UHGV virus genome: UHGV-0263785
Reading direction: 5' to 3' (one strand)
Length of the DNA: 42,602 nt
Origin: a virus
Below are positions 25,279 to 38,209 of this stretch, piece by piece; positions within the stretch are counted from its first letter, which is position 1, and each line of letters starts with the position of its first letter. The position numbers and the translations under genes are program-made. The notes below the pieces were generated by a model that was given only the letters and a program-made list of their open reading frames with translations, did no database searches and had not been told where the DNA came from.

Positions 25279-25479
25279 TTACGCGTCAGGGGGTGTAATA
25301 GTATATCCAGCTATTTCTGCCAACTCGAGAAACGCCATCAGGCTGGCAATCCGCTCATCATCGGTCAGAACACGCACACCAACGATGTGTCCGTCCTTAC
25401 GCTTGATAACAGCCCGGCATGTTTCCGGTAGTTCGCCTATAGATTCTTGAATATTCATGTCTTCCCCCCAATGCCACAA
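25279..25479 (-). CDS. Hypothetical small protein
   Basis: 66-aa ORF in the operon direction. Confidence 0.3.
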   Translation of the reverse strand: MWHWGEDMNIQESIGELPETCRAVIKRKDGHIVGVRVLTDDERIASLMAFLELAEIAGYTITPPDA

Positions 25480-25609
25480 CCTGTATATTTATACAGTATT
25501 TTATGGCATTTGTCATAACGCCAAATACAATGAGGGAATAATGAACAATTATATTCACGTCGTGAATTTTATTAAACGGTTTTATAGGGGATTAAACCGT
25601 TTATGGTCA

Positions 25610-26250
25610 TTATTTATCACTCCTGTAAATTGGAATTAACCATTTTCTAATCGTCGACGCTGCAGGTGGGTCAGAGTATTTCGCCACAAAAATACCGGAT
25701 ATGTATTGCACGCCACGCGATAATGGCGCTGTCGGGTTTTCAGTAAAAAAACGATCAGCCAGTTCAATGGCTTCGCTTTTTAATCTGTGCTGTGGTCGTC
25801 CTCCGCCCTTTGTTCCCAGGTATCGCGCCAGTTGTTTGAAACGGTAGGCGATGATTAACGGTCGCATCATCATATTGAAAAAATCGCGGGCATCGTTGTC
25901 AGCGCCTTGCGCTATCAACAGTGCAAAAAACAGATACGGGATTATGTACACTTCAGGAGATATACGAACCCGTTCACAAGTTGGTGGAGCCAACTCAATA
26001 AGTAAGTCAGCCAGCGGATTCCCCTTTTCTCCACGTTTGTAATAGCGATACAGCGGCCCGATATCAAGTTCACTCACGTCGATTTCAGGATGCCCGGCAA
26101 CGACTGTACGTATCTCTTCTGCCAGAGCGTCAAATATTGCCCCGGTCCGTTCAAGATAGAGCCTCCGGGTCGAACCGCGATCATCCAACGCCCGTAACAT
26201 ATCTAACCGGCTAACGAAAGTTTCAGGCCAGTCCTCATAGAAGGTTTTCA
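25610..26250 (-). CDS. Hypothetical protein
   Basis: The listed ORF starts at GTG (26287); the ATG at 26250 (MKTFYEDW) is preceded by GAGGT. Confidence 0.4.
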
Positions 26251-26494
26251 TAATTACCTCGAATAATAAAAACTGCACTATTTGCACAATTTATTATTCG
26301 TTTTCACGCCGCTGAGTTCTATAAAAAAGAAAAAACCTCCGAGGCAGGGTTTTGTTATGGCTCGTTAAATCATCATCCAACTTTTTAGACTGAACGGTGA
26401 TACTTGCAAATATTTGAAAATATGGGCTGGAACCCTATCTTATGATGTGCCTGGTAATTTATATTGTTGGGTCTTTATATCATGAGGAATCACT

Positions 26495-26728
26495 ATGGGT
26501 ACGTTAGGCAACCAGCCGTGCAGAAGTCGTTATGAGTTCGATGATTTTAATTTAGCCAATCGAGCTGCGGCTCTTACTAAGTTAGCAAAAGAAACTGGTG
26601 TATCGGTGGATACCTTAATCAAACTTGAAATTGCTATGCAACTGAATCGGCTCAACTCCATCCTTATCGAAAACGGTGACAAGATGGACGAGAATCTGGC
26701 AGGTATTGGCGAGATACTGCAGAAGTGA
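26495..26728 (+). CDS. Hypothetical small protein, possible HTH (..LAKETGVSVDTLIKLE..)
   Basis: 77-aa ORF at the edge of the AT-rich island, about 400 bp upstream of the ImmA-like gene. Confidence 0.3.
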   Translation: MGTLGNQPCRSRYEFDDFNLANRAAALTKLAKETGVSVDTLIKLEIAMQLNRLNSILIENGDKMDENLAGIGEILQK

Positions 26729-27126
26729 GAGTAGCCCCTCTTCTGAGGGGTTGCACATTTAAAATATTAAGGGCGGTCTTCTTCACGTACACAGTCACCT
26801 GGTCGAATCGTTCACGCATACTGAGTACAAAAAATCTCAACGATAAGATCAGGTTAGACCTGTATTTTCCAGAAACATATAGACGCCTAAAAAAACACTA
26901 AACTCATGATTATCATGTATGTTTTTACTGGAAACATTGAACCATCCACAATACAGCGTAAAAAGCAAGCAATTCACAAGATTTTAAAGTGATTTATCTG
27001 GAAGACTTTACTACTAACAGTTAATATCGTACCAGAAGTGCAGAATTTGCACTTTTACAGGAATGTGGTACGGAACATGCTGTCTATATTTCAACCAATA
27101 ATCGTAATGCAGTAACTGGAGGAGCT

Positions 27127-27615
27127 ATGGCTACCAACCCAAGAGAGCACGCCCGGCGAGTGCTGGACACGTTCTGGTGCGGGCGTGGTTTCCCTGTTGA
27201 TCCAGCGAAAATTGCTCACGACATGGGATTAGATGTTTTTATTACCGATCTTCCTGGGAAAGTTTCTGGCGCACTGATTAAACAAAAAGATCAAGATCCA
27301 GCGATCTTTCTAAACAGTGATGACAACAAAGTTCGTCAACGTTTTTCATGTGGGCATGAGTTGGGGCATTACATCGCCCGGCAAGCATCGCATAGCGATG
27401 AATATGAGTACGTTGATTTACGTGGCGAAACCGCAAGCGCCGGAACGCATCCTGATGAAATTTTTGCAAACAAGTTCGCAGCAGAACTTCTGATGCCGGT
27501 AGATGAGGTCAGAAAACTGCACGCTGACGGTCAACCAAGTTATATAATGGCGCATTATTTTGGCGTATCTGACGATGCGATGACTTATCGTTTAAAGAAC
27601 TTGAGGTTGGGGTAA
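27127..27615 (+). CDS. ImmA/IrrE-family zinc metallopeptidase (COG2856-like)
   Basis: 162 aa; HEXXH motif (HELGHY) followed by ..DEIFANKFAAELLMP.. characteristic of ImmA/IrrE peptidases; GGAGGAG RBS before the ATG. Confidence 0.7.
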   Translation: MATNPREHARRVLDTFWCGRGFPVDPAKIAHDMGLDVFITDLPGKVSGALIKQKDQDPAIFLNSDDNKVRQRFSCGHELGHYIARQASHSDEYEYVDLRGETASAGTHPDEIFANKFAAELLMPVDEVRKLHADGQPSYIMAHYFGVSDDAMTYRLKNLRLG

Positions 27616-27624
27616 CGCTTTAAA

Positions 27625-28230
27625 ATGCCATCGGATGACGATTTTAACAGCCGTTTCAAACAGGAAGTAGCACGCAGACTGAAGGATTCCCTCAACCTAC
27701 ACCGTCAGTTAGCAGAAGAGGTTGAGCCGGAGGACGATGAAACTCCGGTTCAGTCTCCTGACGAAGCTTCACCTCAGCCAAAGGTTTCGCACGCCCCCAA
27801 AAAAACGGCTGTCCGTATTCGCGGAATAGCCAGAAAAAGAGCTGCCGAAGCTCGCAAAATGGCTGTAGCTGCGTCTAGCAAAAGAATTCCAACTGCTACA
27901 CCCTCTCAACAAGTCACCCGTACTGAGAGTAAAATCTTGACCGAGTTCACATCTGTGAAACAGGTGAATTCACTTGATACCGAGCATGAGCGCAAACAAC
28001 TCAACAACAAAGATTTTGAAGCAGAAATCGCTCTAAAAAAACGATACGGGAAATGGTTCCTGATTATCCTTGCTTTCCAACTTCTGATAATGAATGGTGT
28101 ATTTATTGCCGACGGCGCAGGTAAGCTGGAATTTGAGGATTTAACACTACAGTTGTACATGGGCGGTACTTTGACAGAGGTATTCGGCCTCGTGCTGGTC
28201 GTGACAAAATACCTTTTTAAACGCAAGTAA
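27625..28230 (+). CDS. Membrane protein with charged, low-complexity N-terminal region and two C-terminal TM helices; partner of the ImmA-like peptidase
   Basis: 201 aa; starts 9 bp after the peptidase stop; C-terminus ..WFLIILAFQLLIMNGVFIADGAG..LTEVFGLVLVVTKYLFKRK. Confidence 0.55.
   Translation: MPSDDDFNSRFKQEVARRLKDSLNLHRQLAEEVEPEDDETPVQSPDEASPQPKVSHAPKKTAVRIRGIARKRAAEARKMAVAASSKRIPTATPSQQVTRTESKILTEFTSVKQVNSLDTEHERKQLNNKDFEAEIALKKRYGKWFLIILAFQLLIMNGVFIADGAGKLEFEDLTLQLYMGGTLTEVFGLVLVVTKYLFKRK
28152..28230 (+). repeat. Direct repeat copy 1 (the last ~26 codons of the membrane-protein gene)
   Basis: About 79 bp, roughly 90% identical to 31575-31653; homology ends exactly at the stop codon. 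Confidence 0.8.
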
Positions 28231-28244
28231 CTCTCTCGGTCCAA

Positions 28245-28266
28245 CAGTCTTTCGAAGGCCCTGATC
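28245..28266 (+). terminator. Hairpin (aaggccc-tgatca-aagggcctt) 3' of the membrane-protein gene
   Basis: Inverted repeat 15 bp after the stop. Confidence 0.35.
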
Positions 28267-28692
28267 AAAGGGCCTTGATAAATTAGCAGTGCGTTGAAAA
28301 CAGATAGTTATTCCCATCAGTTCCAACGTAATACACATCAAAAAAATCACCATTCTTTTGCTCTAACGTCAACACCTACCCTTAAAAAAATAATTCTCCA
28401 AGAATGAGAAAGTTATTGTGTGTATTAGATAAGATATGAGCTGACACATCTATGGCGTGGAGCCAAATTTAATATGACAGTCCGCTCTGTGCCATAAGCG
28501 GACTGTCAATAAACAGATTCACTTGTAAATCTTGAAGCTATACATATTTACTTTCAATGATAAATAAAAGAACTATCCAAAAATCACTGAGAGCATATTT
28601 TAACTAACCCTCCGCTACTATTAACATAAATTTCACCCAACCATAATTAAATTGATACATATAGCAACTTACCTTGATACGAATCATCTGGG

Positions 28693-29391
28693 TTATATTT
28701 TTCCATATTTTTTTCCGTCAAATCGAATCATGCCAGGATCAAGAAAATTAATTAAATCGATTAACGCGTGCTGTATTCTGATTAGCCTTTCTTTATAAAT
28801 TCCGATATCTCTTGTCATATTTATCACTTCATTGTTTAAATCTAAAAAAAATGGCTCATTGATAAAGCAATTTTCCTTTGTGAAACTGCCGTAACCTATG
28901 CAATCAAATCCAGTATCTGTTGATATCAGCATCTTTTCTGCAATAGCTCTCTGCTCTCCTATGAAAAACATAAAATACTGACCAAAGACGTCTGTTTGGA
29001 TTAATGAGTTAATATTGTTCTGTAATCTAATAAACTCCCTCATTTTTTTATTTTTTTCTAGGCTAAGGTATTGAATGTCTATGCGGGCAGCTTCTGTCCA
29101 TGCAAAAAACTGGGAAAAAAGAAAAACAGTATTGTTGATAACATAATCTTGTTGGCGCTTATTCCCATTATGATAAAACTCTTCAATGAACCCCAATTCT
29201 AATATATTATAAATACGGCTTTGTAAGTCTGAAGCTGAGCGAATTAACGGTTCAATATAGTACTGATGTTTTCTCCTTACATCCAGTGATTCATTGAGCT
29301 TGTTTATTCTATTCTGATTATAAGTAGATATAGCAATAGAGATTATAGCTATTGCACCACTAATAAAGCTTGAAATTAATGCCGTACCCAT
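28693..29391 (-). CDS. Membrane-anchored hypothetical protein (N-terminal TM helix), strongly AT-rich gene
   Basis: 232 aa, ATG start; N-terminus MGTALISSFISGAIAIISIAISTY; base composition clearly lower in GC than the phage backbone. Confidence 0.5.
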   Translation of the reverse strand: MGTALISSFISGAIAIISIAISTYNQNRINKLNESLDVRRKHQYYIEPLIRSASDLQSRIYNILELGFIEEFYHNGNKRQQDYVINNTVFLFSQFFAWTEAARIDIQYLSLEKNKKMREFIRLQNNINSLIQTDVFGQYFMFFIGEQRAIAEKMLISTDTGFDCIGYGSFTKENCFINEPFFLDLNNEVINMTRDIGIYKERLIRIQHALIDLINFLDPGMIRFDGKKYGKI

Positions 29392-29954
29392 CTAAAAGTC
29401 CTTTGATTCTTGCTTGGTTAACAAAATGACATAATTTTATTTAATGCCATAACAACTTAACAATATATCATAATATGATTATTATGGTGTAGCTTGTCGC
29501 ATCTACGCTCCATTACAAACAGATGTAAGATATAACCTATATGTTTTAGCCAGCAAATTCGAAAGCATTCAAAGTAGTCTCATCGAACTCTCGAAACCCT
29601 ATGTCTTCGGGTATAAAATATTTAAATCCATTTGCATAATATCGACTCATGTTTATTATATTCTCCCCATTCACCATTAAGATTTGACATTATTTTCAAC
29701 AATCGGTTATTGCAAGATTGAAATATATTTTTACTTGACACAATATTCCATGTAGCCCAGCGATTCGACTTACCCCCAACTATACGGACAATCTAAATTA
29801 AATCGATGATTTTTTGATACATTCTCCTCTCTCCATTACTTTATGTTTTTGTTCCCCAAAAATACCTTGCTCTCTAAAAAATAATTGTTCTTTAAGTTCA
29901 AAATCGAGATCTACATGAGCGTTAGATACAAAGCTAATATGTTGAAATGTCTTT

Positions 29955-29963
29955 CCCCCCCCC
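29955..29963. repeat. Homopolymeric C9 (G9 on the minus strand) tract
   Basis: Counted directly: ctttccccccccc|ataacgg. Confidence 0.9.
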
Positions 29964-30579
29964 ATAACGGCATTGTTATCTAAACTATGTTACACAAATA
30001 TAATATTACCCTTTCAACGTAATCCAAGAATAAGATTAATGCCATTATATATATCATAAATATGATATTTTGTATATTTTTATCATTTAGCCTTGATTGT
30101 ACTAGGTGTACTCTCAACGAAGTAGGGAAAGTCTGTTCCTCGCTCACAGCTGCCCTTCAGTAAGCGAAAAAATGCCTACTCGGTGCCATATACAGCCATT
30201 GTTATTAACAGCAGGGAATAATTCAAAACTGAAATTAAATATCTACCTTTTACAGTAGAAATAGTTCCTCCAGGACACTATCCATTGCCGGGCACAATCA
30301 CTCGGGGTATAACGATATAAAATATGTTCATGATAGTGCAGGTTCGTATATTAAGTTCAGCAGCGAAAACATGCCTTACAGGTTTCCGGTTTTGGGAGCG
30401 TCGTTACAGGATCCTGCGCATACCGTTCCCATCTGTTGAATTAAAGGTTTCACAGCCTTTGCCGATATCACCTTTTACCTTACCTGTGATGCGTTCAGTG
30501 CTCAGCGTTGTTTACTGTAGCTCTCGGGACTGATTACAGACCGCGTCTTAAAAACCAATCCTTACTCTAAAGGGAATTC

Positions 30580-31503
30580 ATGAGATTAAAATACTCAGTA
30601 CTCTTACTCGCCATTGCCCTTACAGGCTGTGATAACAAAAAAGATGAGATCGGTTGTTCTTCGGAAATAACCCAGTCAGCTCTCATGGATTTATTAAAAA
30701 AATCTGCTTATGAAGGACTCTCTGAACAGGTCGATAAATACCCTGATGTCACTAATCAGACCAAACGAAGCACACTGGACAAGATCAAACTAGCCATCTC
30801 TGAGATCTCCACAACATCAAGTGACACGGGCAGCACAATGAAAACTTGTGAAGGGACCGTGACGATGACTCTATCTGCGAACGAGTACGTCCAGCTTTCA
30901 GATGCTTACAGAAAGAATTTTAATCGTAATCTCGATAAGCAAATGGAAAGCCTGTTTTTGGAGAACAACGCAAACGCCTTTTCAAAACGTATCACCTACA
31001 CCGTGCAGGCGACCGACGATCAGAAAAACGTTTTTGTAAAAACCTCTACTGATAATCCGATATCAGTGGGCGCCGCTTTACTGACATCGCTTTCCATTAT
31101 CACCCCGATCGTTGAGCAGCAGAAAATCCAGCAGGCTAAGGATGCCCAACAGAGTCAAATTGAAGCGGAACAACAGGTGCAACTCAGGGCGCAAGAACAG
31201 GCTAAGTATGAGGCGGAGAAGCAAATAGAGAGACAGGCACAACTTCAGCCGCAAAAAGCTGACAACCTTGATCAGTCCCGAATGGCATTTGCGAATGCCG
31301 ACTCTGATTTGAGTACCGTCTGGAGCAAGTTAACCCCGGCGAAGAAAAAAGATTTGCTGCCTTCTCAGCGTCAGTGGATCAAAACTAAGGATGCTATGTG
31401 CGGTAAAGTTTCAATGCAGGGAACAGATGCTGAAGTCAAGAAAATGGTCGACTGCCAGACGCAAATGACCCTTTCAAGAATCGCTTTCCTCAGAAACCAA
31501 TAA
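30580..31503 (+). CDS. Lipoprotein with central Gln/Glu-rich coiled-coil and C-terminal DUF1311 (LprI-like) domain
   Basis: 307 aa; lipobox (LLAIALTGC|D); C-terminal ..SQRQWIKTKDAMCGKVSMQGTDAEVKKMVDCQTQMTLSRIAFLRNQ fits the DUF1311 pattern (Q..W...RD..C......C....T..R...L). Confidence 0.6.
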   Translation: MRLKYSVLLLAIALTGCDNKKDEIGCSSEITQSALMDLLKKSAYEGLSEQVDKYPDVTNQTKRSTLDKIKLAISEISTTSSDTGSTMKTCEGTVTMTLSANEYVQLSDAYRKNFNRNLDKQMESLFLENNANAFSKRITYTVQATDDQKNVFVKTSTDNPISVGAALLTSLSIITPIVEQQKIQQAKDAQQSQIEAEQQVQLRAQEQAKYEAEKQIERQAQLQPQKADNLDQSRMAFANADSDLSTVWSKLTPAKKKDLLPSQRQWIKTKDAMCGKVSMQGTDAEVKKMVDCQTQMTLSRIAFLRNQ

Positions 31504-31574
31504 CTGAAGTCTCCTTCAAGCTGGCGCCAGGTGTTAACCTGGTGCCAGCTTAGTCATCAAGTGCATATGTAACT

Positions 31575-31653
31575 GTTTTATATGGGCGGTACTTTGACAG
31601 AGGTATTCGGTCTCGTGCTGGTCGTGGTCAAATACCTTTTTAAGCGCAAATAG
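31575..31653 (+). pseudogene. Direct repeat copy 2: orphan 3' remnant of a homologous membrane-protein gene (encodes ..YMGGTLTEVFGLVLVVVKYLFKRK*)
   Basis: In-frame through to a TAG stop, differences mostly synonymous, no upstream coding sequence. Confidence 0.7.
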
Positions 31654-31677
31654 AGTATTTCCGCCCCAAACAACCTG

Positions 31678-32496
31678 TCAAAATGCTGAATTAGCAACGG
31701 ATATAGCCGACTTTTTCCCCATTACCATCAATTTATCCAGTGTCATACTTCGCAGATTGTCGCTGTGGATCACCAGATACCCTGCCCGCTCAGCGATCTC
31801 TTTGAAAGCGTCAAAGGTCATCAGATGTTCGCCTTTGGCAACATGGCGCATCCCGGTCACTTTTCCATTTTTGATAGTGGTGATAAAAGAAAAATCTGGA
31901 ATGGTTGGGTGATTTTCATCGAGTAGCAGGCAGTGGATGTATTCAATCGCCTCTAACATTTGCGTCTGTGACAGTTGTTCTATGTGAGAGACGGCGAAGC
32001 GTTGATGAATCATGGTGTAGGCATCGGGATACATCATGCCTTTCTTGCCGACCAGTATATTAACGGCATCACGCAAGGGAGTACGGTCATCGGTAGTTGT
32101 ACTCCGCCTCTCTGGACGCTGGCTAAAATAACAATCTTCCAGCTTTTCGAAAACTTCCCAGGCCTGTTCTGTTTCCAGCATTTTGGCATGGCGAGCTGCG
32201 CCGCGTTCTGTCCAGAGAATGAGGGATCGGGTATGTTTAGCAACTGACTGACTATCTGTCAGTCTGTTTTTGAAGTCGCGTAATTCATTACCTTCCAGCT
32301 TAAAAAAATGCTTTCCTACGACAAATCTGGCGATGTTGCGCTTGAAGTTTTGCTGGATACCATTTACTTCCGTGCCATACAAACTGGCAAGCAATTCAGT
32401 AGTGATGACGGGAAGTTGGTTATGATGTAGCGGAGAAAGGGATTCCGCAGATATTTGGACTGTCATCGCAGTGGCCTCACTTAGTGTTTTTTTCAT
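31678..32496 (-). CDS. Phage antirepressor (Ant-like)
   Basis: N-terminal region resembles antirepressor N-domains and the C-terminal half KilA-C-type domains; the listed ORF starts at TTG (32514), the first ATG is at 32496. Confidence 0.55.
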   Translation of the reverse strand: MKKTLSEATAMTVQISAESLSPLHHNQLPVITTELLASLYGTEVNGIQQNFKRNIARFVVGKHFFKLEGNELRDFKNRLTDSQSVAKHTRSLILWTERGAARHAKMLETEQAWEVFEKLEDCYFSQRPERRSTTTDDRTPLRDAVNILVGKKGMMYPDAYTMIHQRFAVSHIEQLSQTQMLEAIEYIHCLLLDENHPTIPDFSFITTIKNGKVTGMRHVAKGEHLMTFDAFKEIAERAGYLVIHSDNLRSMTLDKLMVMGKKSAISVANSAF

Positions 32497-32528
32497 CACC
32501 ACCAGCGACGCCAATCATCTGGTGGTGA
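32496..32528. promoter_or_regulatory. Perfect 10-bp palindrome (tcaccaccag N13 ctggtggtga) overlapping the antirepressor RBS/start
   Basis: Read directly; the 3' arm contains the GGTGGTG Shine-Dalgarno-like sequence. Confidence 0.35.
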
Positions 32529-32738
32529 GCTGTGCAGGGTTGGCGTAACCGGCTAAGTGAACCCGGCGCTTCCACAGAAGCCCCCACACAGCCCACCATA
32601 ATGCGAATGTGGCCGTGCCTAACACATAAAAAAACCGCTAACGCGGCTATGCGTCACTTAGATATCCGGGACGCCAATCCCGGCAACCGATTTTGCGGCT
32701 GCGCGGAAACTATAGCCCCGGACTTTTTCTAAGTCAAT

Positions 32739-32960
32739 TCAATCAACTTCAAACCTCCGGTGTTCACATTCCATACACTCAACGGGAACATCATCGCGAT
32801 GCAAGTCCACATATCCGACCCGCTTATACAACTCAATAATGTCCGGTAACGTGACCAGATGTTTTTCCGGTTCCAACACCTCAGCCCGGGTTACTTTGTA
32901 ATCTGAAATATAGAGCACTATCCGCCCGTTCCGTGGTAACTCCAGTTTATCGCCAAACAT
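32739..32960 (-). CDS. Hypothetical small protein (nin-like region)
   Basis: 73-aa ORF in the operon direction. Confidence 0.3.
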   Translation of the reverse strand: MFGDKLELPRNGRIVLYISDYKVTRAEVLEPEKHLVTLPDIIELYKRVGYVDLHRDDVPVECMECEHRRFEVD

Positions 32961-33147
32961 GTCCTTTCCCTCCGGGAAACCAATGATATTGACGATATTA
33001 CACCCACAACGATTCGTTTTACGTCACTCCGCAATCACCATACATCCGTACCAATCCGTACATTCCCACCACAAAAACGATATTTGACAGGCACTGGTAA
33101 TAGATTTTTAACGCGTGCTATTGCCTTGCGACGTATTTTCAATTCAC

Positions 33148-33372
33148 TCATACAGCCTCCCTGCTCTCAAACGGACGAATATTGGTTGGTTCTCCACACG
33201 GAATAGCCCAACCCAGCCAGGTAAATATTTTCAGGTCACACATCGCGTCATACCGTTCGCCAGGATTCACATCCACCATGCTGCAGGCAATTTCATATTG
33301 TTCACCATTATCAGTCAGTGCGATCTGGTCATTAATAAACCGGGGCACAAATGCAAGAAAAAGTTCTTTCAT
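33148..33372 (-). CDS. Hypothetical small protein (nin-like region)
   Basis: 74-aa ORF in the operon direction; preferred over the overlapping + strand ORF. Confidence 0.3.
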   Translation of the reverse strand: MKELFLAFVPRFINDQIALTDNGEQYEIACSMVDVNPGERYDAMCDLKIFTWLGWAIPCGEPTNIRPFESREAV

Positions 33373-33680
33373 GAAATTCTCCGCTCAAAATAAACAAACT
33401 GATTCACCGCTCCGATCGGCATTTCGAGTTTTTCTGCGATATCCTGGCGATTAATACCCGACTGATGTAATTCCCTTGCCAGCTCGATATCTTCCTGGAG
33501 GTATTTCACTGACTGGTGATAATTACCCCGCAGATACATACAGATTTTCAGCTCGCGCGCTTTTGTGCGTACCGCTGCACCGGTTCTGCCAATAAGCTGC
33601 CCTATACGTTCAACTGTCATGCTGCCCGCACATTGTTTGATGATTACGACTTCCGCACGCACCCACCGTTTGTATTTCAT
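33369..33680 (-). CDS. Small putative DNA-binding (HTH) protein
   Basis: 103 aa with two HTH-like stretches (..MTVERIGQLIGRTGAAVRTKAREL.., ..GINRQDIAEKLEMPIGAVNQFVY..). Confidence 0.3.
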   Translation of the reverse strand: MKYKRWVRAEVVIIKQCAGSMTVERIGQLIGRTGAAVRTKARELKICMYLRGNYHQSVKYLQEDIELARELHQSGINRQDIAEKLEMPIGAVNQFVYFERRIS

Positions 33681-33913
33681 TGTTCCATCACCCCTCTCCA
33701 GTAGTTCAGACGCTCTCTGAAAAATTCCCGGTACGTATCTGGCGTCATTCCGATTTGCTCAATCACGCTTCCCCTCGGAATACGTTTCTCAAAGAGTTGG
33801 CGGATCAGCGCCGCCGCTCGCATGTCGTAGTGCTCTTTAAGCTGGTATTCCTGGGGCCATTTGGCGCGGTTGTGTGGTAAGCCGGGCGGCAGGTAATCTG
33901 ATTGCCCGGCCAT
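33677..33913 (-). CDS. Hypothetical small protein
   Basis: 78-aa ORF tightly packed in the operon. Confidence 0.3.
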   Translation of the reverse strand: MAGQSDYLPPGLPHNRAKWPQEYQLKEHYDMRAAALIRQLFEKRIPRGSVIEQIGMTPDTYREFFRERLNYWRGVMEQ

Positions 33914-33914
33914 A

Positions 33915-34325
33915 TCACGCCCCTTTCTTTGCTATCGGAGTGATGGAACTCAGCAGCAGGCGGCAGCGACCAGGCGCGCCAATGCGCTGCCCGGTTATCT
34001 TGTCGTAAGTTTCATGCGGTGAGGCACACCAGGTTGTCGCTGTTTCGTGGAGTTTCACTTGCCGCTCACCATTTCTGCGAATCGCGATCCCGGTGTGCGT
34101 TTTGCCCTTACGTTTCACTGCTGGCGCTGCGGCTACGGATGCCTGACGGGCAGGCTTAGCAGGGGTTGAAAAATTGCCTGCTTTAGGTCTTGGCACAAAA
34201 ACCGCGCGAGTGCGCGCACGTGGCCCGACGTTCATATTCCACAAAATGACGTCGAGATAGTTTTTACCGTCGTCTATGTGTCCTTTGTCCGACGGGTACT
34301 CTAATTTGCCTGGAGTGGTGGTCAT
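33915..34325 (-). CDS. Hypothetical protein
   Basis: 136-aa ORF directly downstream of the helicase gene. Confidence 0.3.
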   Translation of the reverse strand: MTTTPGKLEYPSDKGHIDDGKNYLDVILWNMNVGPRARTRAVFVPRPKAGNFSTPAKPARQASVAAAPAVKRKGKTHTGIAIRRNGERQVKLHETATTWCASPHETYDKITGQRIGAPGRCRLLLSSITPIAKKGA

Positions 34326-34363
34326 TGGTCTTTCCTCGGTTATTTCACGCTGGTCAGGCGTGG

Positions 34364-35806
34364 TTAAAATTCATTTGTGCGAGAATTATCGCTACGGGAA
34401 TAACGTTTATTTTTTTCTGAGCGGTCGTTGGTAAGGCGATAAACCTCCTCATCGCTGATATCAATAACTGAGCCATTTTTCATCAGGGCATAGGCTGTTC
34501 CCGATGGTCCTTCGCGGTTCAGACGTAGCAACATTTCCATGAGATTTGGGTCGGCATTTTCGTTATAAACAGCATCACGATAGAGGCCAATCCAGACATC
34601 GCAATCTTGTTCGATCTGCCCGGTATCTTTACTGTCGCTCGGGTTAGGCCGCTTATCGGCACGTTCTTCAAGCTTTCGGTTGAGTTGCGTCAGCAGGACC
34701 ACAACACAATCCAGCTCTTTTGCCAGGTTCTTCAAACCGGTTGTGATATCGCCATACGCAATATCCCTACGCTCTGCCGATTCGGTCTTCATCAGCGTCA
34801 AATAGTCAATTGCCACCAGGCCAACCGAGCCACGCATCCGTTTAACTTTTCGACATTCAGCGACAATATGCGCAAGGGTTACACCTGCCGTGCTGTCAAT
34901 CATCATGTTGGATTCGGCAATCTCCCCCGCCTTTGCTATTGCGAGACTCAATTCAGATTCATCGTTAGGGCCAAGATAAAAAATCTCCGAATTGACCTTT
35001 GCTTCCTGCGCAACCATGCGTTCAATGAGACTTCTGTCAGTCATTTCCAGGCTAAATACCAGCGTCGGCAAACGATGATTCAGAGCAAAATGCACCGCAA
35101 TTTTATTAAACGCGGCTGTCTTGCCCATTTTTGGCCGGGCACCAATAACGACCAATGAACCTCTTAACGCCTGCTTTGGTGCCATTAAGCGATCAAGGCT
35201 TTCGATTCCGAGCGTTAGTCCGGCTGCATGTGCTGGATCATTGAAACGGCGCTCAAGGTCATCTATCCAGTCATCGACGACTTCACTTGCCGGACGCAAA
35301 CCGCCCTTATGCCCGGTACGGGAATGTTCGGCCACCTGCCCAATCACTTGCTGAACGGCGGTGATCCTGTCAGTAGCAGTCATATCTGCAGGCTGGATCA
35401 TAATCTCCAGACAAGAATTCAACTTTTCCACGGCATAACGAAGAATGGCTTTTTCACGTACAATTTTCGCGTAGTTGACCATTGAGGCCGGAATCGCCGC
35501 CTTACTCATTTCAGCCAGGTATGCGAATCCCCCCACGCGCTCATACAGCCCCTTCGATTCCATCAGTTCGGTCAGTGTTATCAGGTCAGTTGGTTTATCA
35601 GCTTGAAATAATCCTTTGATCTCCCGGTAGATAACCTGATGCGCATTGATATAAAACGTTTCCGGTTTCAGTAACGCAAATACCGCATTGGTTCTGTCGT
35701 GGTCGGTATTCAGCATCAGACAGCCCAGAACAGCCTGTTCTGCGTCAACGCTGTACAGTGCAATCGCGTTATTTATCATTTGCGCGTTCTTCCTTGACCG
35801 AAACAT
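34364..35806 (-). CDS. Replicative DNA helicase (DnaB family)
   Basis: DnaB N-terminal ..SVDAEQAVLGCLML.., Walker A ..GARPKMGKTA.., and ..TQLNRKLEERADKRP.. blocks; an alternative ATG at 35779 is also possible. Confidence 0.85.
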   Translation of the reverse strand: MFRSRKNAQMINNAIALYSVDAEQAVLGCLMLNTDHDRTNAVFALLKPETFYINAHQVIYREIKGLFQADKPTDLITLTELMESKGLYERVGGFAYLAEMSKAAIPASMVNYAKIVREKAILRYAVEKLNSCLEIMIQPADMTATDRITAVQQVIGQVAEHSRTGHKGGLRPASEVVDDWIDDLERRFNDPAHAAGLTLGIESLDRLMAPKQALRGSLVVIGARPKMGKTAAFNKIAVHFALNHRLPTLVFSLEMTDRSLIERMVAQEAKVNSEIFYLGPNDESELSLAIAKAGEIAESNMMIDSTAGVTLAHIVAECRKVKRMRGSVGLVAIDYLTLMKTESAERRDIAYGDITTGLKNLAKELDCVVVLLTQLNRKLEERADKRPNPSDSKDTGQIEQDCDVWIGLYRDAVYNENADPNLMEMLLRLNREGPSGTAYALMKNGSVIDISDEEVYRLTNDRSEKNKRYSRSDNSRTNEF

Positions 35807-36524
35807 AGCAGCGTTCGGTAATCAGATAATCAAGATTTTTACGCCGCCAGAATCCTCCCCTGCCATTTGGCCTGTCCTCCAGCATCCAGCGACAATTGCC
35901 ACCGATAAATTCCAGATAGGCCCGCCAACGGGACTCATTGAAATTGAATTTTTTCCAGAAAGTGCGAAGGTGTTTTTTTCTGCCGTCAGTGAGGATTTTC
36001 ACTGGTGGCATCTCTGGCAAAATCTCGTGATAGGTATCGAGTATCACCTGATAATTTATTCTCTGGTCGGCAGGTTGTTGGGTGTCGGCGTCAGCCGATT
36101 CACCATCAGTAATAATCTCTGTAGTATTCTCTGTAAGAATGTTTGTTGGTTTTCCACGTACAGGCCTGGTGGTTTTCCCCTCACCTGTATGTGGTTTTTC
36201 CGCATCCTTGTATGCGGACGTAAGTAGCTGGCACAACACATCATTATCGATTTTGTAGTACAGCCTGGCAGGCAAGCCCTGTTTACGTTCCAGCAAGACG
36301 CCGAGACCACGTAGTTTTTTGCGCGCGCCCTCCTGCTCGTATCGTGAAAGCCCTGTTTCCTCTTCCCACTCATCCTGGGTTTTATATACCCAGCCGTCGT
36401 CAGTTGTTCTGTTTGTCCAGTACGTCAACTGCGACAGAAACAATGCGGCAGTCACGCCCATTTCAAGACGGATAAAACTTCTCTGGAAGGCTATGGGTCT
36501 ATCAAGTAACGGGAGGATGTTCAT
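35769..36524 (-). CDS. Replication initiation / replisome organiser protein (lambda O-like role)
   Basis: 251 aa immediately upstream of DnaB-like helicase; N-terminal region resembles winged-helix phage replication proteins. Confidence 0.6.
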   Translation of the reverse strand: MNILPLLDRPIAFQRSFIRLEMGVTAALFLSQLTYWTNRTTDDGWVYKTQDEWEEETGLSRYEQEGARKKLRGLGVLLERKQGLPARLYYKIDNDVLCQLLTSAYKDAEKPHTGEGKTTRPVRGKPTNILTENTTEIITDGESADADTQQPADQRINYQVILDTYHEILPEMPPVKILTDGRKKHLRTFWKKFNFNESRWRAYLEFIGGNCRWMLEDRPNGRGGFWRRKNLDYLITERCYVSVKEERANDK

Positions 36525-36745
36525 ATGCCCAAAGCCTCTGAGAGAACGCGACAGCCAGCCTCATAGGCAGCGCCAGAGAGATTTTGCTCACGCAGTTTCG
36601 CTTTTTCTTCTTCGTACTTTTCCCATACAGAACGTGCAGCTGCGACGCGGCCATCGAATATGGGGCGGATCTCTGCAACATGTGCCGGGCGTCCATTCAG
36701 GTGCCAGCCGTTACGCCAGGTAATGCGGTCAATATGTCTTAACAT
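36521..36745 (-). CDS. Hypothetical small protein
   Basis: 74 aa, ATG start, stop overlaps the start of the replication gene. Confidence 0.3.
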   Translation of the reverse strand: MLRHIDRITWRNGWHLNGRPAHVAEIRPIFDGRVAAARSVWEKYEEEKAKLREQNLSGAAYEAGCRVLSEALGI

Positions 36746-36784
36746 CGGTCTTTCCTCGGTATAAGTTAAACGCTGGTCAGGCGC

Positions 36785-37261
36785 TCATGCATGGTGGTCT
36801 TGCGCAGTGCGTATCACTGCTCCTCGCGTCGCTACCAGCGCCGCTATTGCTTCGTCAATTTCCTGAATAGTTAACTCTGGCGCGAAGTGGAGATGTACAG
36901 CGTTAATCGCTTCCACCCCTTCTTTTGCCGCCAGCGTTGCCAGCAAAACGGGATCGCCCGGCGACTCCAGACGTGCCCGCCGTTCTGCGGGTAGCACGGC
37001 TTTCATCACACTGGCCAGCACCTGAGTTTTTCGGCGCGCCGCCGTTGTCTCGCCACGTAACCAGCGAAAGATTTTCTGCCGATTGTTGTTGATGGCTCTC
37101 CAGTCCACGTTGCCGTCCGCGTCCTCAAATTCATGTAGTCTCAACTCATCATTGCGTCCCTGACTGAACCAGGCCCGGCAGATTTCAATCGTGACGAGTT
37201 CCTGCCCTGCCCTTGCCGCCCAGGTCAAAATCTCTTTTTGTAATTCCTCTTGGTTTTCCAT
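36785..37261 (-). CDS. YdaT-like protein (CII-analogue position downstream of the Cro/YdaS-like gene)
   Basis: 158 aa; position and size match the ydaS-ydaT arrangement of Rac-type lambdoid prophages; sequence-level family call is tentative. Confidence 0.45.
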   Translation of the reverse strand: MENQEELQKEILTWAARAGQELVTIEICRAWFSQGRNDELRLHEFEDADGNVDWRAINNNRQKIFRWLRGETTAARRKTQVLASVMKAVLPAERRARLESPGDPVLLATLAAKEGVEAINAVHLHFAPELTIQEIDEAIAALVATRGAVIRTAQDHHA

Positions 37262-37319
37262 AGCGTCTCCTGTCGCTAAAAATTGATTACGCTTAATCAG
37301 ATTTGGGGCTCACCAACAG

Positions 37320-37552
37320 TTAAGCTGCTTCCGTTTTAGGCAAGCTGTCATCTGGGTTTGGGTAAAGATCCGGTCTAAGATCATGAGGGGTCACGCGCCA
37401 TTCAAGAGCTTCAGATGTGCGCAAAACCTCTTCACCGGGAACCCGTCCTTTGAACCAGAGGCTTACCGTTTGTGGTTTTTTCCCTAATCGCCGCCCTAAC
37501 TCGGATTGACTCATTACGGAAAGAATTTTGTCTTGCAGTTGTTTATCCATAT
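37320..37552 (-). CDS. Cro/YdaS-like HTH regulator (DUF1019-like)
   Basis: ..LGRRLGKKPQTVSLWFKGRVPGEEVLRTSEALEWRVTPHDLRPDLY fits the YdaS/DUF1019 pattern; divergent from the repressor gene; start taken at the ATG preceded by AGGAG (MDKQLQ). Confidence 0.6.
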
Positions 37553-37648
37553 GGACTCCTTGTGTCCGCGTCATCATTACAAACAATAACTGTAATTACA
37601 AATTATATTTGCAATGCTCCCTACAATTAAACCTTGTATCCTTACGGT
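37553..37648. promoter_or_regulatory. Divergent promoter/operator region between cro-like and repressor genes, with repeated TTACAA/TTGTAA half-sites
   Basis: ATTACA-N9-TGTAAT, the palindrome TGTAATTACA, and TTACAA-N7-TTGCAA at 37577-37615. Confidence 0.45.
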
Positions 37649-38062
37649 ATGAACACAAAAACGAAAAACATGGCTTTTGCTAGCCGACTACAACGGATTC
37701 TAAAAGACTTAGGCTGGTCTCAATCTGAGTTAGCTCGCCATATTGGGGTTACGGCTCAATCAGTTCAGGCATGGTGTAATGGGGTAACTCCAAGAAAAGA
37801 TAAATTAGACAAGCTAGCAAAAGTGACCGGATACCCTGTTCATTTTTTCTTCATGAATGAAGGGGAATATTTGGATGAATCCACACTACACCCGGGTAAT
37901 TACAATCAAGAACTAACCCCGCAAGAACAGGCTCTACTGCAACTATTCAGAGGACTGCCTGAGAGCGAAAAAAATAAATTAATCAATGAGCTAAAAGAAA
38001 AAAGAGAGCACTTCGATCTACTGCTAAAAGAACTACTTGAAGCCAAAAACCAGACAAAATAG
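37649..38062 (+). CDS. XRE-family HTH repressor (CI-like role), no LexA/S24 peptidase domain
   Basis: N-terminal HTH (..LQRILKDLGWSQSELARHIGVTAQSVQAWCNG..), C-terminal coiled-coil; the listed ORF starts at TTG (37634), the ATG is at 37649. Confidence 0.65.
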   Translation: MNTKTKNMAFASRLQRILKDLGWSQSELARHIGVTAQSVQAWCNGVTPRKDKLDKLAKVTGYPVHFFFMNEGEYLDESTLHPGNYNQELTPQEQALLQLFRGLPESEKNKLINELKEKREHFDLLLKELLEAKNQTK

Positions 38063-38180: not shown

Positions 38181-38209
38181 TTGACCATTACAAATACAAA
38201 TTGTAAAGT
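38181..38209 (+). promoter_or_regulatory. Candidate PL-like promoter with overlapping operator (TTGACC-N17-TAAAGT; TTACAA-N7-TTGTAA inside the spacer)
   Basis: Same half-site family as in the cro/repressor intergenic region. Confidence 0.3.

What the first reader, a model, noticed from the sequence alone, without database searches (positions are those of the whole stretch)
31678..38062. Immunity circuit: peptidase-less repressor plus antirepressor with a palindrome over its start
The repressor (37649-38062) is an XRE HTH protein with no LexA-like self-cleavage domain, so induction probably needs an antirepressor, as in Gifsy-type prophages. An Ant-like gene is present at 31678-32496, and a perfect 10-bp palindrome (tcaccaccag N13 ctggtggtga) covers its Shine-Dalgarno and start codon. 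That could be a protein operator or an RNA hairpin that sequesters the RBS. I found no LexA box (CTGT-N8-ACAG) upstream of ant.
Basis: partly seen in the sequence, partly recalled or inferred. Interest (0 to 1): 0.35.

Follow-up and report, generated by a model that had tools for sequence, protein, structure and literature searches.

The report
Antisense-RNA-controlled antirepressor in Gifsy-like prophage

Summary
The palindrome is real: 32496-32528, perfect 10+10 bp, none in shuffles. It does not cover the ant start. The conserved start is ATG 32466, 30 nt downstream. Rfam finds a complete P1-immI / Gifsy-1-isrK cassette on the minus strand: a1b1 targets plus IsrK sRNA (32715-32628), then C4 antisense RNA (32603-32518).

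The palindrome's 5' arm is the 3' strand of the C4 basal stem. Its loop carries target a2 (UUGGCGU). Target b2 (CUAAGUGA) overlaps the ant Shine-Dalgarno. In 56 distinct cassettes, P1 included, the hairpin arms covary and a2 lies between them in 53. It is therefore an RNA structure, not an operator.

The ant product is 66% identical over its ORF6N domain to Gifsy-1 AnrP. The repressor (HTH only) is 36% identical to GfoR and 29% to DicA.

A near-consensus LexA box (25481-25496) precedes a 59-aa gene of the Rem family (Rem is the antirepressor of DicA). The same domain recurs as a 73-aa ORF (32739-32960) and as the C-terminus of Ant.

Verdict: the circuit idea is right in outline and wrong in detail. 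It is a new member of known kinds. The shared-strand hairpin and the three Rem-like modules are modestly new observations.

The parts
37670..38062 (+). Prophage repressor, 130 aa (137 aa if started at 37649). HTH_3 only, GfoR/DicA type.
   Evidence: Pfam HTH_3 1.7e-12 and no peptidase domain. 36% identity to Gifsy-1 GfoR, E 2e-21. 29% to DicA over the full length. NCBIfam DicA subfamily 1.3e-19, below its cutoff. PGAP start 37670.
37576..37615 (.). Two overlapping operator-like palindromes (ATTACA-N9-TGTAAT) between the repressor and cro-like genes. A third copy lies at 38187-38207.
   Evidence: Function is inferred from position. The sites are unrelated in sequence to the ant palindrome.
37320..37550 (-). 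Cro-like regulator (YdaS family), first gene of the early-right operon.
   Evidence: Pfam YdaS_toxin and HTH_3. phrog_35. PGAP coordinates.
36785..37261 (-). CII-like protein (YdaT family).
   Evidence: Pfam YdaT_toxin 2e-15. phrog_163 'CII-like' 7e-42.
32739..32960 (-). 73-aa ORF with a Rem-like (phrog_340) domain, the last gene of the early-right operon, ending 2 nt before the cassette promoter.
   Evidence: phrog_340 3.5e-21. Strong GGAGGG Shine-Dalgarno. 32% identical to the Ant C-terminus, E 3e-5. Not annotated in NZ_AP018784.2.
32709..32737 (-). Sigma-70-like promoter of the cassette (TTGACT-17-TATAGT). The inferred transcription start is about 32702.
   Evidence: The -10 CTATAgT is conserved in homologous cassettes. 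The isrK model starts at 32702.
32628..32715 (-). IsrK-type leader / short sRNA. It holds the a1 site UUGGCGU (32677-32671, in the loop of hairpin 32683-32666), the b1 site CUAAGUGA (32661-32654) and an intrinsic terminator (32648-32628).
   Evidence: Rfam isrK 80.4 bits (gathering score 50) and c4-a1b1 52.9 bits (gathering score 46.7). Terminator scan. Sites read and named after the P1 record.
32518..32603 (-). C4 antisense RNA. The mature form, by analogy with P1, would be 32597-32521 (77 nt). a' is ACGCCAA (32546-32540); b' is UCACUUAG (32560-32553).
   Evidence: Rfam C4 75.2 bits (gathering score 45). Structure 99.9% paired with heavy covariation in 31 cassettes. P1 c4 annotation.
32496..32528 (-). 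The 5' arm (32528-32519) is the 3' strand and tail of the C4 basal stem. The loop (32518-32506) carries a2 UUGGCGU (32514-32508). The 3' arm (32505-32496) is the conserved GGUGGUG element.
   Evidence: A helix of at least 7 contiguous bp is present in 80% of 56 distinct cassettes, against 7.5% when the downstream sequence is shuffled. a2 lies between the arms in 53 of 56. P1 has the same hairpin with different arms.
32475..32484 (-). b2 target CUAAGUGA (32484-32477), overlapping the Shine-Dalgarno GAGG (32478-32475) of ant.
   Evidence: Complementary to the C4 stem-loop 2 loop. Cognate loop/target matches average 8.0 nt against 4.2 nt for non-cognate pairs. The site ends 9-12 nt before the AUG in most of the 31 cassettes.
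31678..32466 (-). Antirepressor gene, 262 aa. N-terminal ORF6N domain (AnrP-like), a middle Ant-like segment, and a C-terminal Rem-like domain (about aa 199-236, nt 31759-31872).
   Evidence: Pfam ORF6N 9.6e-22. phrog_4792 'anti-repressor' 1.4e-165 and phrog_340 4.5e-12 on the C-terminus. 66% identity to Gifsy-1 AnrP over aa 1-117. 37% identity to the 59-aa protein over 38 aa, E 4e-7.
25481..25496 (-). LexA box TACTGTATAAATATACAGgt, 17 of 20 matches to the E. coli consensus, 22 nt upstream of the 59-aa gene's ATG.
   Evidence: The only perfect CTGT-N8-ACAG in the window. The strict pattern is expected 0.01 times by chance. Retained in a homolog with 75% amino-acid identity and diverged flanks.
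25279..25458 (-). 59-aa Rem-family protein, the candidate SOS-induced antirepressor.
   Evidence: phrog_340 1.6e-20; Rem itself scores 4.4e-21. Profile-profile comparison of window-type proteins against Rem proteins gives 94.9% probability, E 4e-8.

Best explanation
The window is an E. coli lambdoid prophage with a Gifsy/Qin-type immunity system. A short, non-cleavable HTH repressor (37670-38062) is probably switched off by antirepressor proteins, which reach it through separately controlled routes.

The gene (31678-32466) encodes an ORF6N protein homologous to Gifsy-1 AnrP. It is preceded by its own promoter and a roughly 240-nt leader that is a complete P1-immI / Gifsy-1-isrK cassette. As shown for P1, C4 pairs through its junction (ACGCCAA) with a2 and through its loop (UCACUUAG) with b2. 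That pairing blocks ribosome binding and keeps Ant off in the lysogen. The short IsrK RNA carries the same a and b sequences. As shown for Gifsy-1, it can pair with the C4 region and switch translation on.

Role of the palindrome. It is an RNA hairpin that presents a2 in its loop. Because it shares 6 nt with the base of the C4 stem, it can form fully only when that stem is frayed or occupied. When it does not form, its 3' arm is predicted to pair with the SD/AUG region. It therefore probably acts as the anti-sequestering half of a conformational switch.

Route 2, the SOS input. A LexA box lies immediately upstream of a 59-aa Rem-family gene (25279-25458). DNA damage would de-repress it.

Route 3. 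A third Rem-like ORF (32739-32960) sits at the end of the early operon.

Shown here: the RNA family memberships, the covariation, the complementarities, the protein homologies and the LexA box. Inferred: that any of the three Rem-like modules binds this repressor, the direction of regulation, and the switch.
For: RNA cassette:
- Rfam isrK, C4 and c4-a1b1 all score above their gathering thresholds, contiguous and on the ant strand. The same trio precedes anrP in Gifsy-1.
- The C4 fold is 99.9% paired, with a covariation score of 0.458 against 0.186 for shuffles.
- The hairpin is 94% paired, 7 pairs show double changes, and 0 of 500 shuffles reach the observed score. An alignment-free test on 56 cassettes agrees.
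- The a'/a2 and b'/b2 complementarities covary, and b2 sits over the SD.
- The P1 record annotates a1, b1, c4, a2, b2 and icd in the same order.

Proteins:
- Ant versus AnrP: 66% identity.
- Repressor versus GfoR and DicA; no peptidase domain.
- phrog_340 matches the 59-aa protein, the 73-aa ORF, the Ant C-terminus and Rem. hhalign probability 94.9%.

SOS input:
- LexA box.

Switch:
- The predicted unpaired probability of the SD-AUG region rises from 0.32 to 0.45 when the C4 3' strand is available. It rises in 28 of 29 cassettes.

Literature:
- PMC4825925: IsrK activates anrP translation by pairing with the 'orf45' (C4) region, and AnrP induces Gifsy-1.
- PMC3121763: Gifsy repressors are inactivated by LexA-controlled small antirepressors.
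- PMC10448788: Rem relieves DicA repression.
Against: - No experiment exists for this prophage.
- The Rem-like proteins show no detectable similarity to GfoA, and Rem itself has no LexA box. The LexA-plus-Rem-family combination is therefore by analogy only.
- AnrP's C-terminal half differs from this Ant's, so the target specificity is unknown.
- In equilibrium folding of the whole precursor, the full C4 stem wins. The palindrome costs 6.5 kcal/mol and has a probability of about 1e-4. The hairpin must therefore form conditionally.
- The accessibility effect is small in many homologs, and the sequences are related, so the p-value is inflated.
- P1 has an icd gene between C4 and ant; this prophage does not.
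- The simple promoter scan did not call a promoter overlapping the LexA box. The ATGACA-17-TATAAA promoter is read by eye.
Confidence: 0.7

Rival explanations
1. The palindrome is a protein operator, or a hairpin that directly buries the SD and start codon (ATG 32496) of ant.
For: The palindrome is perfect and unique. An in-frame ATG abuts it at 32496, and GGTGGTGA is SD-like.
Against: - The ATG at 32496 is not conserved. The conserved SD and start lie at 32478-32464.
- The arms change sequence with compensation across cassettes, for example GCTACCGC/GCGGTAGC and GTTCGCC/GGCGAAC. That pattern fits RNA pairing, not a fixed protein site.
- One arm lies inside the C4 RNA.
- The repressor's operators have a different sequence.
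Confidence: 0.03
2. The repressor is inactivated by proteolysis by the prophage's own M78 metallopeptidase (27127-27615, ImmA/IrrE/CapP-like), as in ImmR/ImmA, DdrO/IrrE or CapH/CapP. Antirepressors would not be involved.
For: - Pfam Peptidase_M78 7.7e-18.
- PADLOC CapP 2.4e-25.
- phrog_2439, a fused HTH-M78 family, matches both the repressor and the peptidase.
- An operator-like site with 2 mismatches lies at 27088-27108, just upstream.
Against: - The peptidase gene lies 10 kb from the repressor, on the opposite strand, inside an accessory-gene island. ImmA and CapP genes normally sit next to their HTH partner.
- The operator-like match is within chance expectation: 1.7 sites expected and 5 found in total.
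- GfoR/DicA-type repressors have documented antirepressor control (PMC3121763, PMC10448788), and the window carries three Rem-like modules, one of them behind a LexA box.
Confidence: 0.1
3. The C4-controlled ORF6N protein and/or the extra Rem-like ORFs do not act on this prophage's own repressor. They would act in trans on repressors of co-resident prophages (cross-talk), or the C4 cassette would serve mainly as a superinfection-immunity determinant, as P1 immI does. Only the LexA-controlled 59-aa protein would induce this prophage.
For: - Lemire et al. [quoted passage not shown]
- The three Rem-like modules are only 26-37% identical to each other, which suggests different targets.
- C4 cassettes occur up to 7 times per E. 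coli genome.
Against: AnrP expression does induce its own prophage, Gifsy-1 (PMC4825925). Nothing in the sequence discriminates between targets.
Confidence: 0.25

Closest known systems
Gifsy-1 isrK-orf45-anrP locus of Salmonella (Hershko-Shalev et al. 2016, PMC4825925)
   Same: - The same three Rfam elements occur in the same order upstream of the gene.
- The Ant N-terminal ORF6N domain is 66% identical to AnrP.
- The host prophage has a GfoR-type repressor and a separate LexA-controlled locus.
- An ORF starts at the C4 AUGGUGG: orf40 here, orf45 there.
   Different: - The cassette follows the replication/nin genes here, whereas it lies downstream of Q in Gifsy-1.
- The Ant C-terminus is a Rem-like domain, whereas AnrP's C-terminus belongs to phrog_22471.
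- There is no isrJ downstream.
- The orf45-type ORF is not conserved in length across cassettes: 14-45 aa, or read-through.
- The published structural analysis covered nt 1-180 only and so excluded the downstream arm of the hairpin.
immI region of phages P1/P7: c4 antisense RNA - icd - ant (Citron & Schuster 1990; Biere et al. 1992; recalled from memory, plus the annotated record NC_005856)
   Same: - The layout is promoter, a1, b1, C4, a2, b2 over an RBS, then the regulated gene.
- A 77-nt C4 can be placed at the equivalent position.
- P1 also has a hairpin built from the C4 3' end (CCUGCCACC), an a2 loop and GGUAGCAGG.
   Different: - There is no icd gene here; b2 covers the RBS of ant itself.
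- P1 Ant is a different protein family acting on the C1 repressor.
- The P1 promoter has a C1 operator, whereas no operator-like site lies near this cassette.
- The a and b specificity sequences differ.
Gifsy GfoR/GfoA, GfhR/GfhA and GtgR/GftA repressor-antirepressor pairs (Lemire et al. 2011, PMC3121763)
   Same: - A peptidase-less repressor of about 130 aa, 36% identical to GfoR.
- A small gene behind a LexA box, lying outside the immunity region between the replication genes and Q.
   Different: - The 59-aa protein shows no detectable similarity to GfoA.
- There is no dinI gene ahead of it and no irsA after it.
DicA/Rem of the E. coli Qin prophage (Ragunathan & Vanderpool 2023, PMC10448788)
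   Same: - The repressor is 29% identical to DicA over its full length.
- The 59-aa, 73-aa and Ant C-terminal modules fall in the same PHROG as Rem and match it profile-to-profile.
   Different: - rem has no LexA box and its inducing signal is unknown (PMC10448788).
- The window proteins fall outside the Pfam family recorded for Rem clusters (PF27490).
- Pairwise BLAST between Rem and the 59-aa protein finds nothing.

Membership tests
C4 antisense RNA (Rfam RF01695) | Covariance-model score at or above the gathering threshold | tested here: met
   75.2 bits against a threshold of 45, full-length match at 32603-32518 on the minus strand.
C4 antisense RNA (Rfam RF01695) | Long basal stem enclosing two hairpins, supported by covariation | tested here: met
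   27 pairs, 99.9% of cells paired, 11 pairs with double changes, in 31 cassettes.
C4 antisense RNA / P1 immI | Two C4 segments (a', b') complementary to two target sets: a1/b1 upstream and a2/b2 downstream | tested here: met
   ACGCCAA pairs with UUGGCGU (two copies) and UCACUUAG pairs with CUAAGUGA (two copies). Cognate complementarity exceeds non-cognate.
C4 antisense RNA / P1 immI | b2 overlaps the ribosome-binding site of the first downstream gene | tested here: met
   b2 (32484-32477) overlaps GAGG (32478-32475). The site ends 9-12 nt before the AUG in most cassettes.
C4 antisense RNA / P1 immI | An icd gene lies between C4 and ant, and ant expression is coupled to icd translation | tested here: not met
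   ant starts 52 nt after the end of the Rfam C4 match, and there is no Icd-like ORF.
C4 antisense RNA / P1 immI | Processing by RNase P to a 77-nt RNA that represses in trans | not testable with these tools
   Only the positional analogy to the P1 c4 annotation is available.
isrK (Rfam RF01394) / Gifsy-1 isrK locus | Score at or above the gathering threshold, own promoter, intrinsic terminator, followed by an AnrP-type gene | tested here: met
   80.4 bits against a threshold of 50. Promoter-like and terminator-like sites. AnrP homology.
Gifsy/Qin-type (GfoR/DicA) repressors | Short HTH repressor without an S24 peptidase domain, homologous to GfoR/DicA | tested here: met
Gifsy/Qin-type (GfoR/DicA) repressors | Not cleaved on induction; displaced from DNA by antirepressor binding | not testable with these tools
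   Requires a Western blot and EMSA.
LexA/lambda-CI-type self-cleaving repressors | C-terminal Peptidase_S24 domain with an Ala-Gly cleavage site | tested here: not met
   No S24 hit at E <= 0.01. The protein is only 130-137 aa.
LexA-controlled small antirepressors of Gifsy phages (GfoA family) | LexA box at the promoter of the antirepressor operon | tested here: met
   25481-25496. Conserved in a homolog.
LexA-controlled small antirepressors of Gifsy phages (GfoA family) | Sequence homology to GfoA/GfhA/GftA/FsoA | tested here: not met
   No BLAST alignment. hhalign probability 1.7% and 0.1% with shallow profiles. GfoA is in phrog_4847, not phrog_340.
Rem family (phrog_340) | Profile match to the family that contains Rem, the demonstrated DicA antirepressor | tested here: met
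   59-aa protein 1.6e-20, 73-aa ORF 3.5e-21, Ant C-terminus 4.5e-12, Rem 4.4e-21. hhalign 94.9%, E 4e-8, with Rem excluded from the query set.
ORF6N/KilA-N-type antirepressors (AnrP; phrog_4792) | N-terminal ORF6N domain and a full-length family match | tested here: met
   Pfam ORF6N 77.5 bits. phrog_4792 1.4e-165. 66% identity to AnrP.
ImmR/ImmA or CapH/CapP protease-controlled repressors | M78 peptidase gene adjacent to its HTH repressor gene | tested here: not met
   The peptidase gene at 27127-27615 is 10 kb from the repressor, on the other strand, with no HTH neighbour.

The most novel reading that the evidence does not exclude
Two readings go beyond what is documented.

1. The palindrome may be a universal, so far unmodelled part of C4 cassettes. 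It would be a three-strand switch in which the C4 3' strand either closes the tRNA-like C4 stem or pairs with a conserved downstream arm. The second pairing displays target a2 and releases the ant RBS. Rfam's C4 model stops before this element, and the published Gifsy-1 structure work stopped at nt 180.

2. The Rem-like domain of about 40 aa may be the transferable repressor-binding module of these phages. Here it is present three times under three different controls: LexA, the C4/IsrK RNA, and early-operon read-through. This would let one non-cleavable repressor, or those of co-resident prophages, integrate three signals.
Probability: 0.3. Interest if true: 0.55.

Novelty: new member of a known kind. 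Interest (0 to 1): 0.35.

Why it matters
This prophage is present at 99% identity or more in about 450 of 5,426 complete E. coli genomes.

Two induction inputs are predicted here and can be tested. One is SOS, through a LexA-controlled Rem-family protein. The other is a C4/IsrK RNA switch on an AnrP-like antirepressor. Both bear on how antibiotics and stress mobilise the prophage.

More generally, C4 cassettes occur in about half of complete E. coli genomes, up to 7 per genome. They sit in front of ant, ORF6N, Rha, ash and Icd-like genes. A conserved hairpin that shares a strand with C4 would refine the model of how this very common module works.

None of this overturns existing knowledge.

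Tried and rejected
- **Repressor operator.** I compared the palindrome with the immunity-region repeats. The sequences are unrelated, so this was rejected.
- **Intrinsic terminator.** The A-run follows the hairpin on the minus strand and the T-run precedes it on the plus strand, and the scan did not call it. Rejected.
- **Conserved coding ORF in C4.** I tested whether the orf45-type ORF starting at the C4 AUG is conserved. Its length ranges from 14 to 45 aa or it reads through, and one cassette has AUU instead of AUG. It is not a conserved coding feature, though it may still be translated in particular phages.
- **Homology to GfoA.** Pairwise and profile-profile comparisons found nothing. The GfoA profile is shallow (Neff 1.4), so this result is weak.
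- **Pfam and NCBIfam for the small proteins.** No hits. PF27490, recorded for Rem clusters, is not in the local Pfam copy.
- **Solved structures.** None for Ant or the Rem-like domain.
- **Near-identical phage genome.** megablast against the phage collection found none.
- **Terminator after the 59-aa gene.** An 8-bp hairpin followed by AUUUUCU is present, but it is no more stable than shuffles (z = -0.89). Left open.
- **P1 primary literature.** The original papers on the a2/b2 structure are not in the held library. I could not establish whether the hairpin was described there.

Full report
**What the window is.** The region is 100% identical to a chromosomal prophage found in about 450 of 5,426 complete E. 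coli genomes. The annotated copy is NZ_AP018784.2, integrated next to a tRNA cluster beside pgsA. The early-right operon runs on the minus strand. In order it holds a cro-like YdaS-family gene (37320-37550), a CII-like YdaT-family gene (36785-37261), an O-like gene, a DnaB helicase and several small ORFs. The repressor gene is divergent, on the plus strand.

**Checking the observation.** The palindrome TCACCACCAG-N13-CTGGTGGTGA is present once, at 32496-32528, and never in shuffles. The repressor has HTH domains only. The ant ORF carries an ORF6N domain and matches PHROG anti-repressor families. The gene start, however, is ATG 32466, not 32496. PGAP uses 32466. Gifsy-1 AnrP aligns from residue 1 to that start. 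In the aligned homologous cassettes the conserved SD and start codon line up with 32478-32464, whereas the 32496 ATG is unique to this window. The palindrome therefore lies 30-62 nt upstream of the start and cannot bury the SD or AUG by itself.

**What the palindrome is.** A blastn search with the 380-nt region upstream of ant gave hits in 2,670 of 5,426 E. coli genomes. The hits lie next to ORF6N, Ant, Rha, ash and Icd-like genes. That pattern pointed to a conserved non-coding module. Rfam then gave three contiguous matches above their gathering scores on the ant strand:
- c4-a1b1 at 32715-32663
- isrK at 32702-32628
- C4 antisense RNA at 32603-32518

The palindrome's 5' arm (32528-32519) is the 3' strand and tail of the C4 basal stem.

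The richly annotated P1 record has the same order: a1, b1, the 77-nt c4 RNA, a2 three nt after C4, b2 over the icd RBS. Using P1 nomenclature, the window's features are:
- a' ACGCCAA at 32546-32540
- b' UCACUUAG at 32560-32553
- a1 UUGGCGU at 32677-32671, in a hairpin loop
- b1 CUAAGUGA at 32661-32654
- a2 UUGGCGU at 32514-32508, in the loop of the palindrome
- b2 CUAAGUGA at 32484-32477, overlapping the SD GAGG of ant

**Comparative evidence.** One pattern scan of IMG/VR yielded 120 loci.
- From these, plus Gifsy-1, I aligned 31 distinct cassettes.
- The Rfam C4 fold is 99.9% paired with strong covariation.
- The palindrome helix (8 outer pairs plus a 3-pair inner helix) is 94% paired. Seven pairs show double changes, and 0 of 500 shuffles reach the observed score. 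Slid controls give 26-62% pairing.
- Where the shared strand mutates, the C4 5' strand tolerates it through G-U pairs, while the downstream arm restores Watson-Crick pairs.
- The C4 loop and the b2 site match over a mean of 8.0 contiguous nt in cognate pairs, against 4.2 nt in non-cognate pairs. b2 ends 9-12 nt before the AUG. a' and a2 match over 7 nt in all but one cassette (8 nt there), against 4.0 nt for non-cognate pairs.
- I built a covariance model from C4 with the hairpin columns left unstructured. It found 67 cassettes, including GC-rich, divergent ones and P1.
- In an alignment-free test on the 56 distinct sequences, a helix of at least 7 contiguous bp joins the C4 3' strand to a downstream arm in 80%. 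With the downstream sequence shuffled the figure is 7.5%.
- a2 lies between the arms in 53 of 56. The arms differ completely between lineages, for example GCTACCGC/GCGGTAGC, GTTCGCC/GGCGAAC and GCCGCUCUCC/GGGGAGCGGU.
- P1 itself has CCUGCCACC, an a2 loop, and GGUAGCAGG.

The palindrome is therefore a conserved RNA hairpin, not a protein operator. It is also unlike the repressor's own operator-like sites, ATTACA-N9-TGTAAT at 37576, 37595 and 38187.

**How the hairpin may work (inference).** The hairpin shares 6 nt with the base of the C4 stem. In equilibrium folding of the precursor the full C4 stem wins, and the 3' arm instead pairs with the GGCCACUGCGAUG segment around the start codon. Forcing the palindrome costs 6.5 kcal/mol. 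RNAalifold keeps C4 and adds a short, register-slipped ACC/GGU helix plus the covarying inner helix around a2. Making the C4 3' strand available raises the predicted unpaired probability of the SD-AUG region from 0.32 to 0.45. The rise is seen in 28 of 29 cassettes and is largest in the ORF6N group. These sequences are related, so the statistic is only indicative.

This fits the published Gifsy-1 model. There the read-through isrK-orf45-anrP transcript is translationally silent. Short IsrK RNA pairs with the 'orf45' region, which is the C4 sequence, and switches anrP translation on (PMC4825925). That work analysed nt 1-180 only and so excluded the downstream arm. The orf45-type ORF (orf40 here, 32599-32477) is not conserved in length across cassettes.

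**The proteins.**
- Ant is 66% identical to AnrP over the ORF6N domain, aa 1-117. AnrP expression raises antQ-operon transcripts and induces Gifsy-1 (PMC4825925).
- The repressor is 36% identical to GfoR and 29% to DicA. Gifsy repressors are not cleaved; they are displaced from DNA by small antirepressors whose genes are LexA-controlled (PMC3121763). DicA is relieved by Rem (PMC10448788).
- PHROG family 340 matches Rem (4.4e-21). In this window it also matches a 59-aa ORF at 25279-25458 (1.6e-20), a 73-aa ORF at 32739-32960 (3.5e-21) and the C-terminus of Ant (4.5e-12).
- A profile of the window-type proteins, built without Rem, matches a Rem profile at 94.9% probability, E 4e-8.
- GfoA is not detectably related to these proteins.

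**The SOS link.** The window's only perfect CTGT-N8-ACAG is at 25481-25496. It reads TACTGTATAAATATACAGgt and lies 22 nt upstream of the 59-aa gene's ATG. The strict form of the pattern is expected 0.01 times by chance. The box is retained in a homolog with 75% amino-acid identity whose flanks have diverged. It is absent from 43%-identical homologs. Gifsy-1 has its LexA box before dinI-gfoA. rem has none.

**Rival explanations.** A CapP/ImmA-like M78 peptidase (27127-27615) could in principle cleave the repressor. It is 10 kb from the repressor, on the opposite strand, and has no HTH partner, so I give this about 0.1. The Rem-like modules may instead target repressors of other prophages, as FsoA does (PMC3121763). 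The sequence cannot exclude this.

**Verdict.** The details are wrong. The element is a standard P1-C4 / Gifsy-IsrK cassette, the start codon was misplaced, and the LexA-controlled gene lies elsewhere. This is a new member of known kinds. Two observations may be new and are testable: the strand-sharing a2 hairpin conserved across C4 cassettes, and the triple use of a Rem-like module, once fused to an ORF6N antirepressor.

Noticed in passing
window 27127-28230 (+), and 27088-27108: An M78 metallopeptidase gene (best PADLOC hit CapP, 2.4e-25; Pfam Peptidase_M78) is followed by a 201-aa protein whose C-terminal part is hydrophobic by eye (phrog_5346). A 2-mismatch copy of the repressor-operator motif lies 19 nt upstream of the peptidase start. 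The pair could be a DNA-damage-sensing protease module or part of a defence system.
   Followed up: partly
window 25610-31503: An island of accessory genes sits between the ant gene and the nin/Q genes, in mixed orientation. It includes an LprI-family lysozyme-inhibitor lipoprotein (30580-31503), a 232-aa protein with a weak PADLOC DRT 'RTasTM' hit of 1.8e-5 (28693-29391), and a phrog_5215 protein (25610-26251).
   Followed up: partly
L076 9640-11108 (IMGVR_UViG_2671181028_000005); also L035, L050, L070: C4 cassettes occur in tandem arrays. L076 has three cassettes 656 nt apart, each followed by a near-identical gene of about 120 aa (MATVPTSP...). Their a' specificity sequences differ: UACGCC, AGUUCC, ACUGCG. 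The arrangement looks like a multi-specificity immunity array.
   Followed up: partly
window 32380-32760; E. coli genomes: The cassette leader matches 2,670 of 5,426 complete E. coli genomes, with up to 7 places per genome. The places lie in front of genes annotated ORF6N, Ant, Rha, ash or Icd-like, or in unannotated DNA. Cross-regulation between co-resident cassettes with the same a/b specificity is conceivable.
   Followed up: no
window 32477-32599 (-): A 40-codon ORF starts at the conserved C4 AUGGUGG. Its UGA stop lies inside the ant Shine-Dalgarno. It is the counterpart of Gifsy-1 orf45. In 13 of 31 cassettes the equivalent ORF runs in frame into the downstream gene.
   Followed up: yes
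L032 4742-4853: In one divergent cassette the C4 stem is followed directly by a run of 8 U, making it look like an intrinsic terminator. The hairpin arm there is UUCCGCCCUU/AGGGGCGGGA. C4 3'-end formation may differ between lineages.
   Followed up: no
window 38187-38207: A third operator-like site (ATTACAAATACAAATTGTAAA, 1 mismatch) lies downstream of the repressor gene and ahead of the plus-strand early-left genes (39073 onward). It is probably the O_L equivalent.
   Followed up: no
window 32739-32960 (-): The 73-aa Rem-like ORF is not annotated in NZ_AP018784.2 although it has a strong SD and a PHROG match of 3.5e-21. In one E. coli genome (H1, NZ_CP196521.1) an ISEc52 element interrupts the 31400-33000 region.
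   Followed up: no
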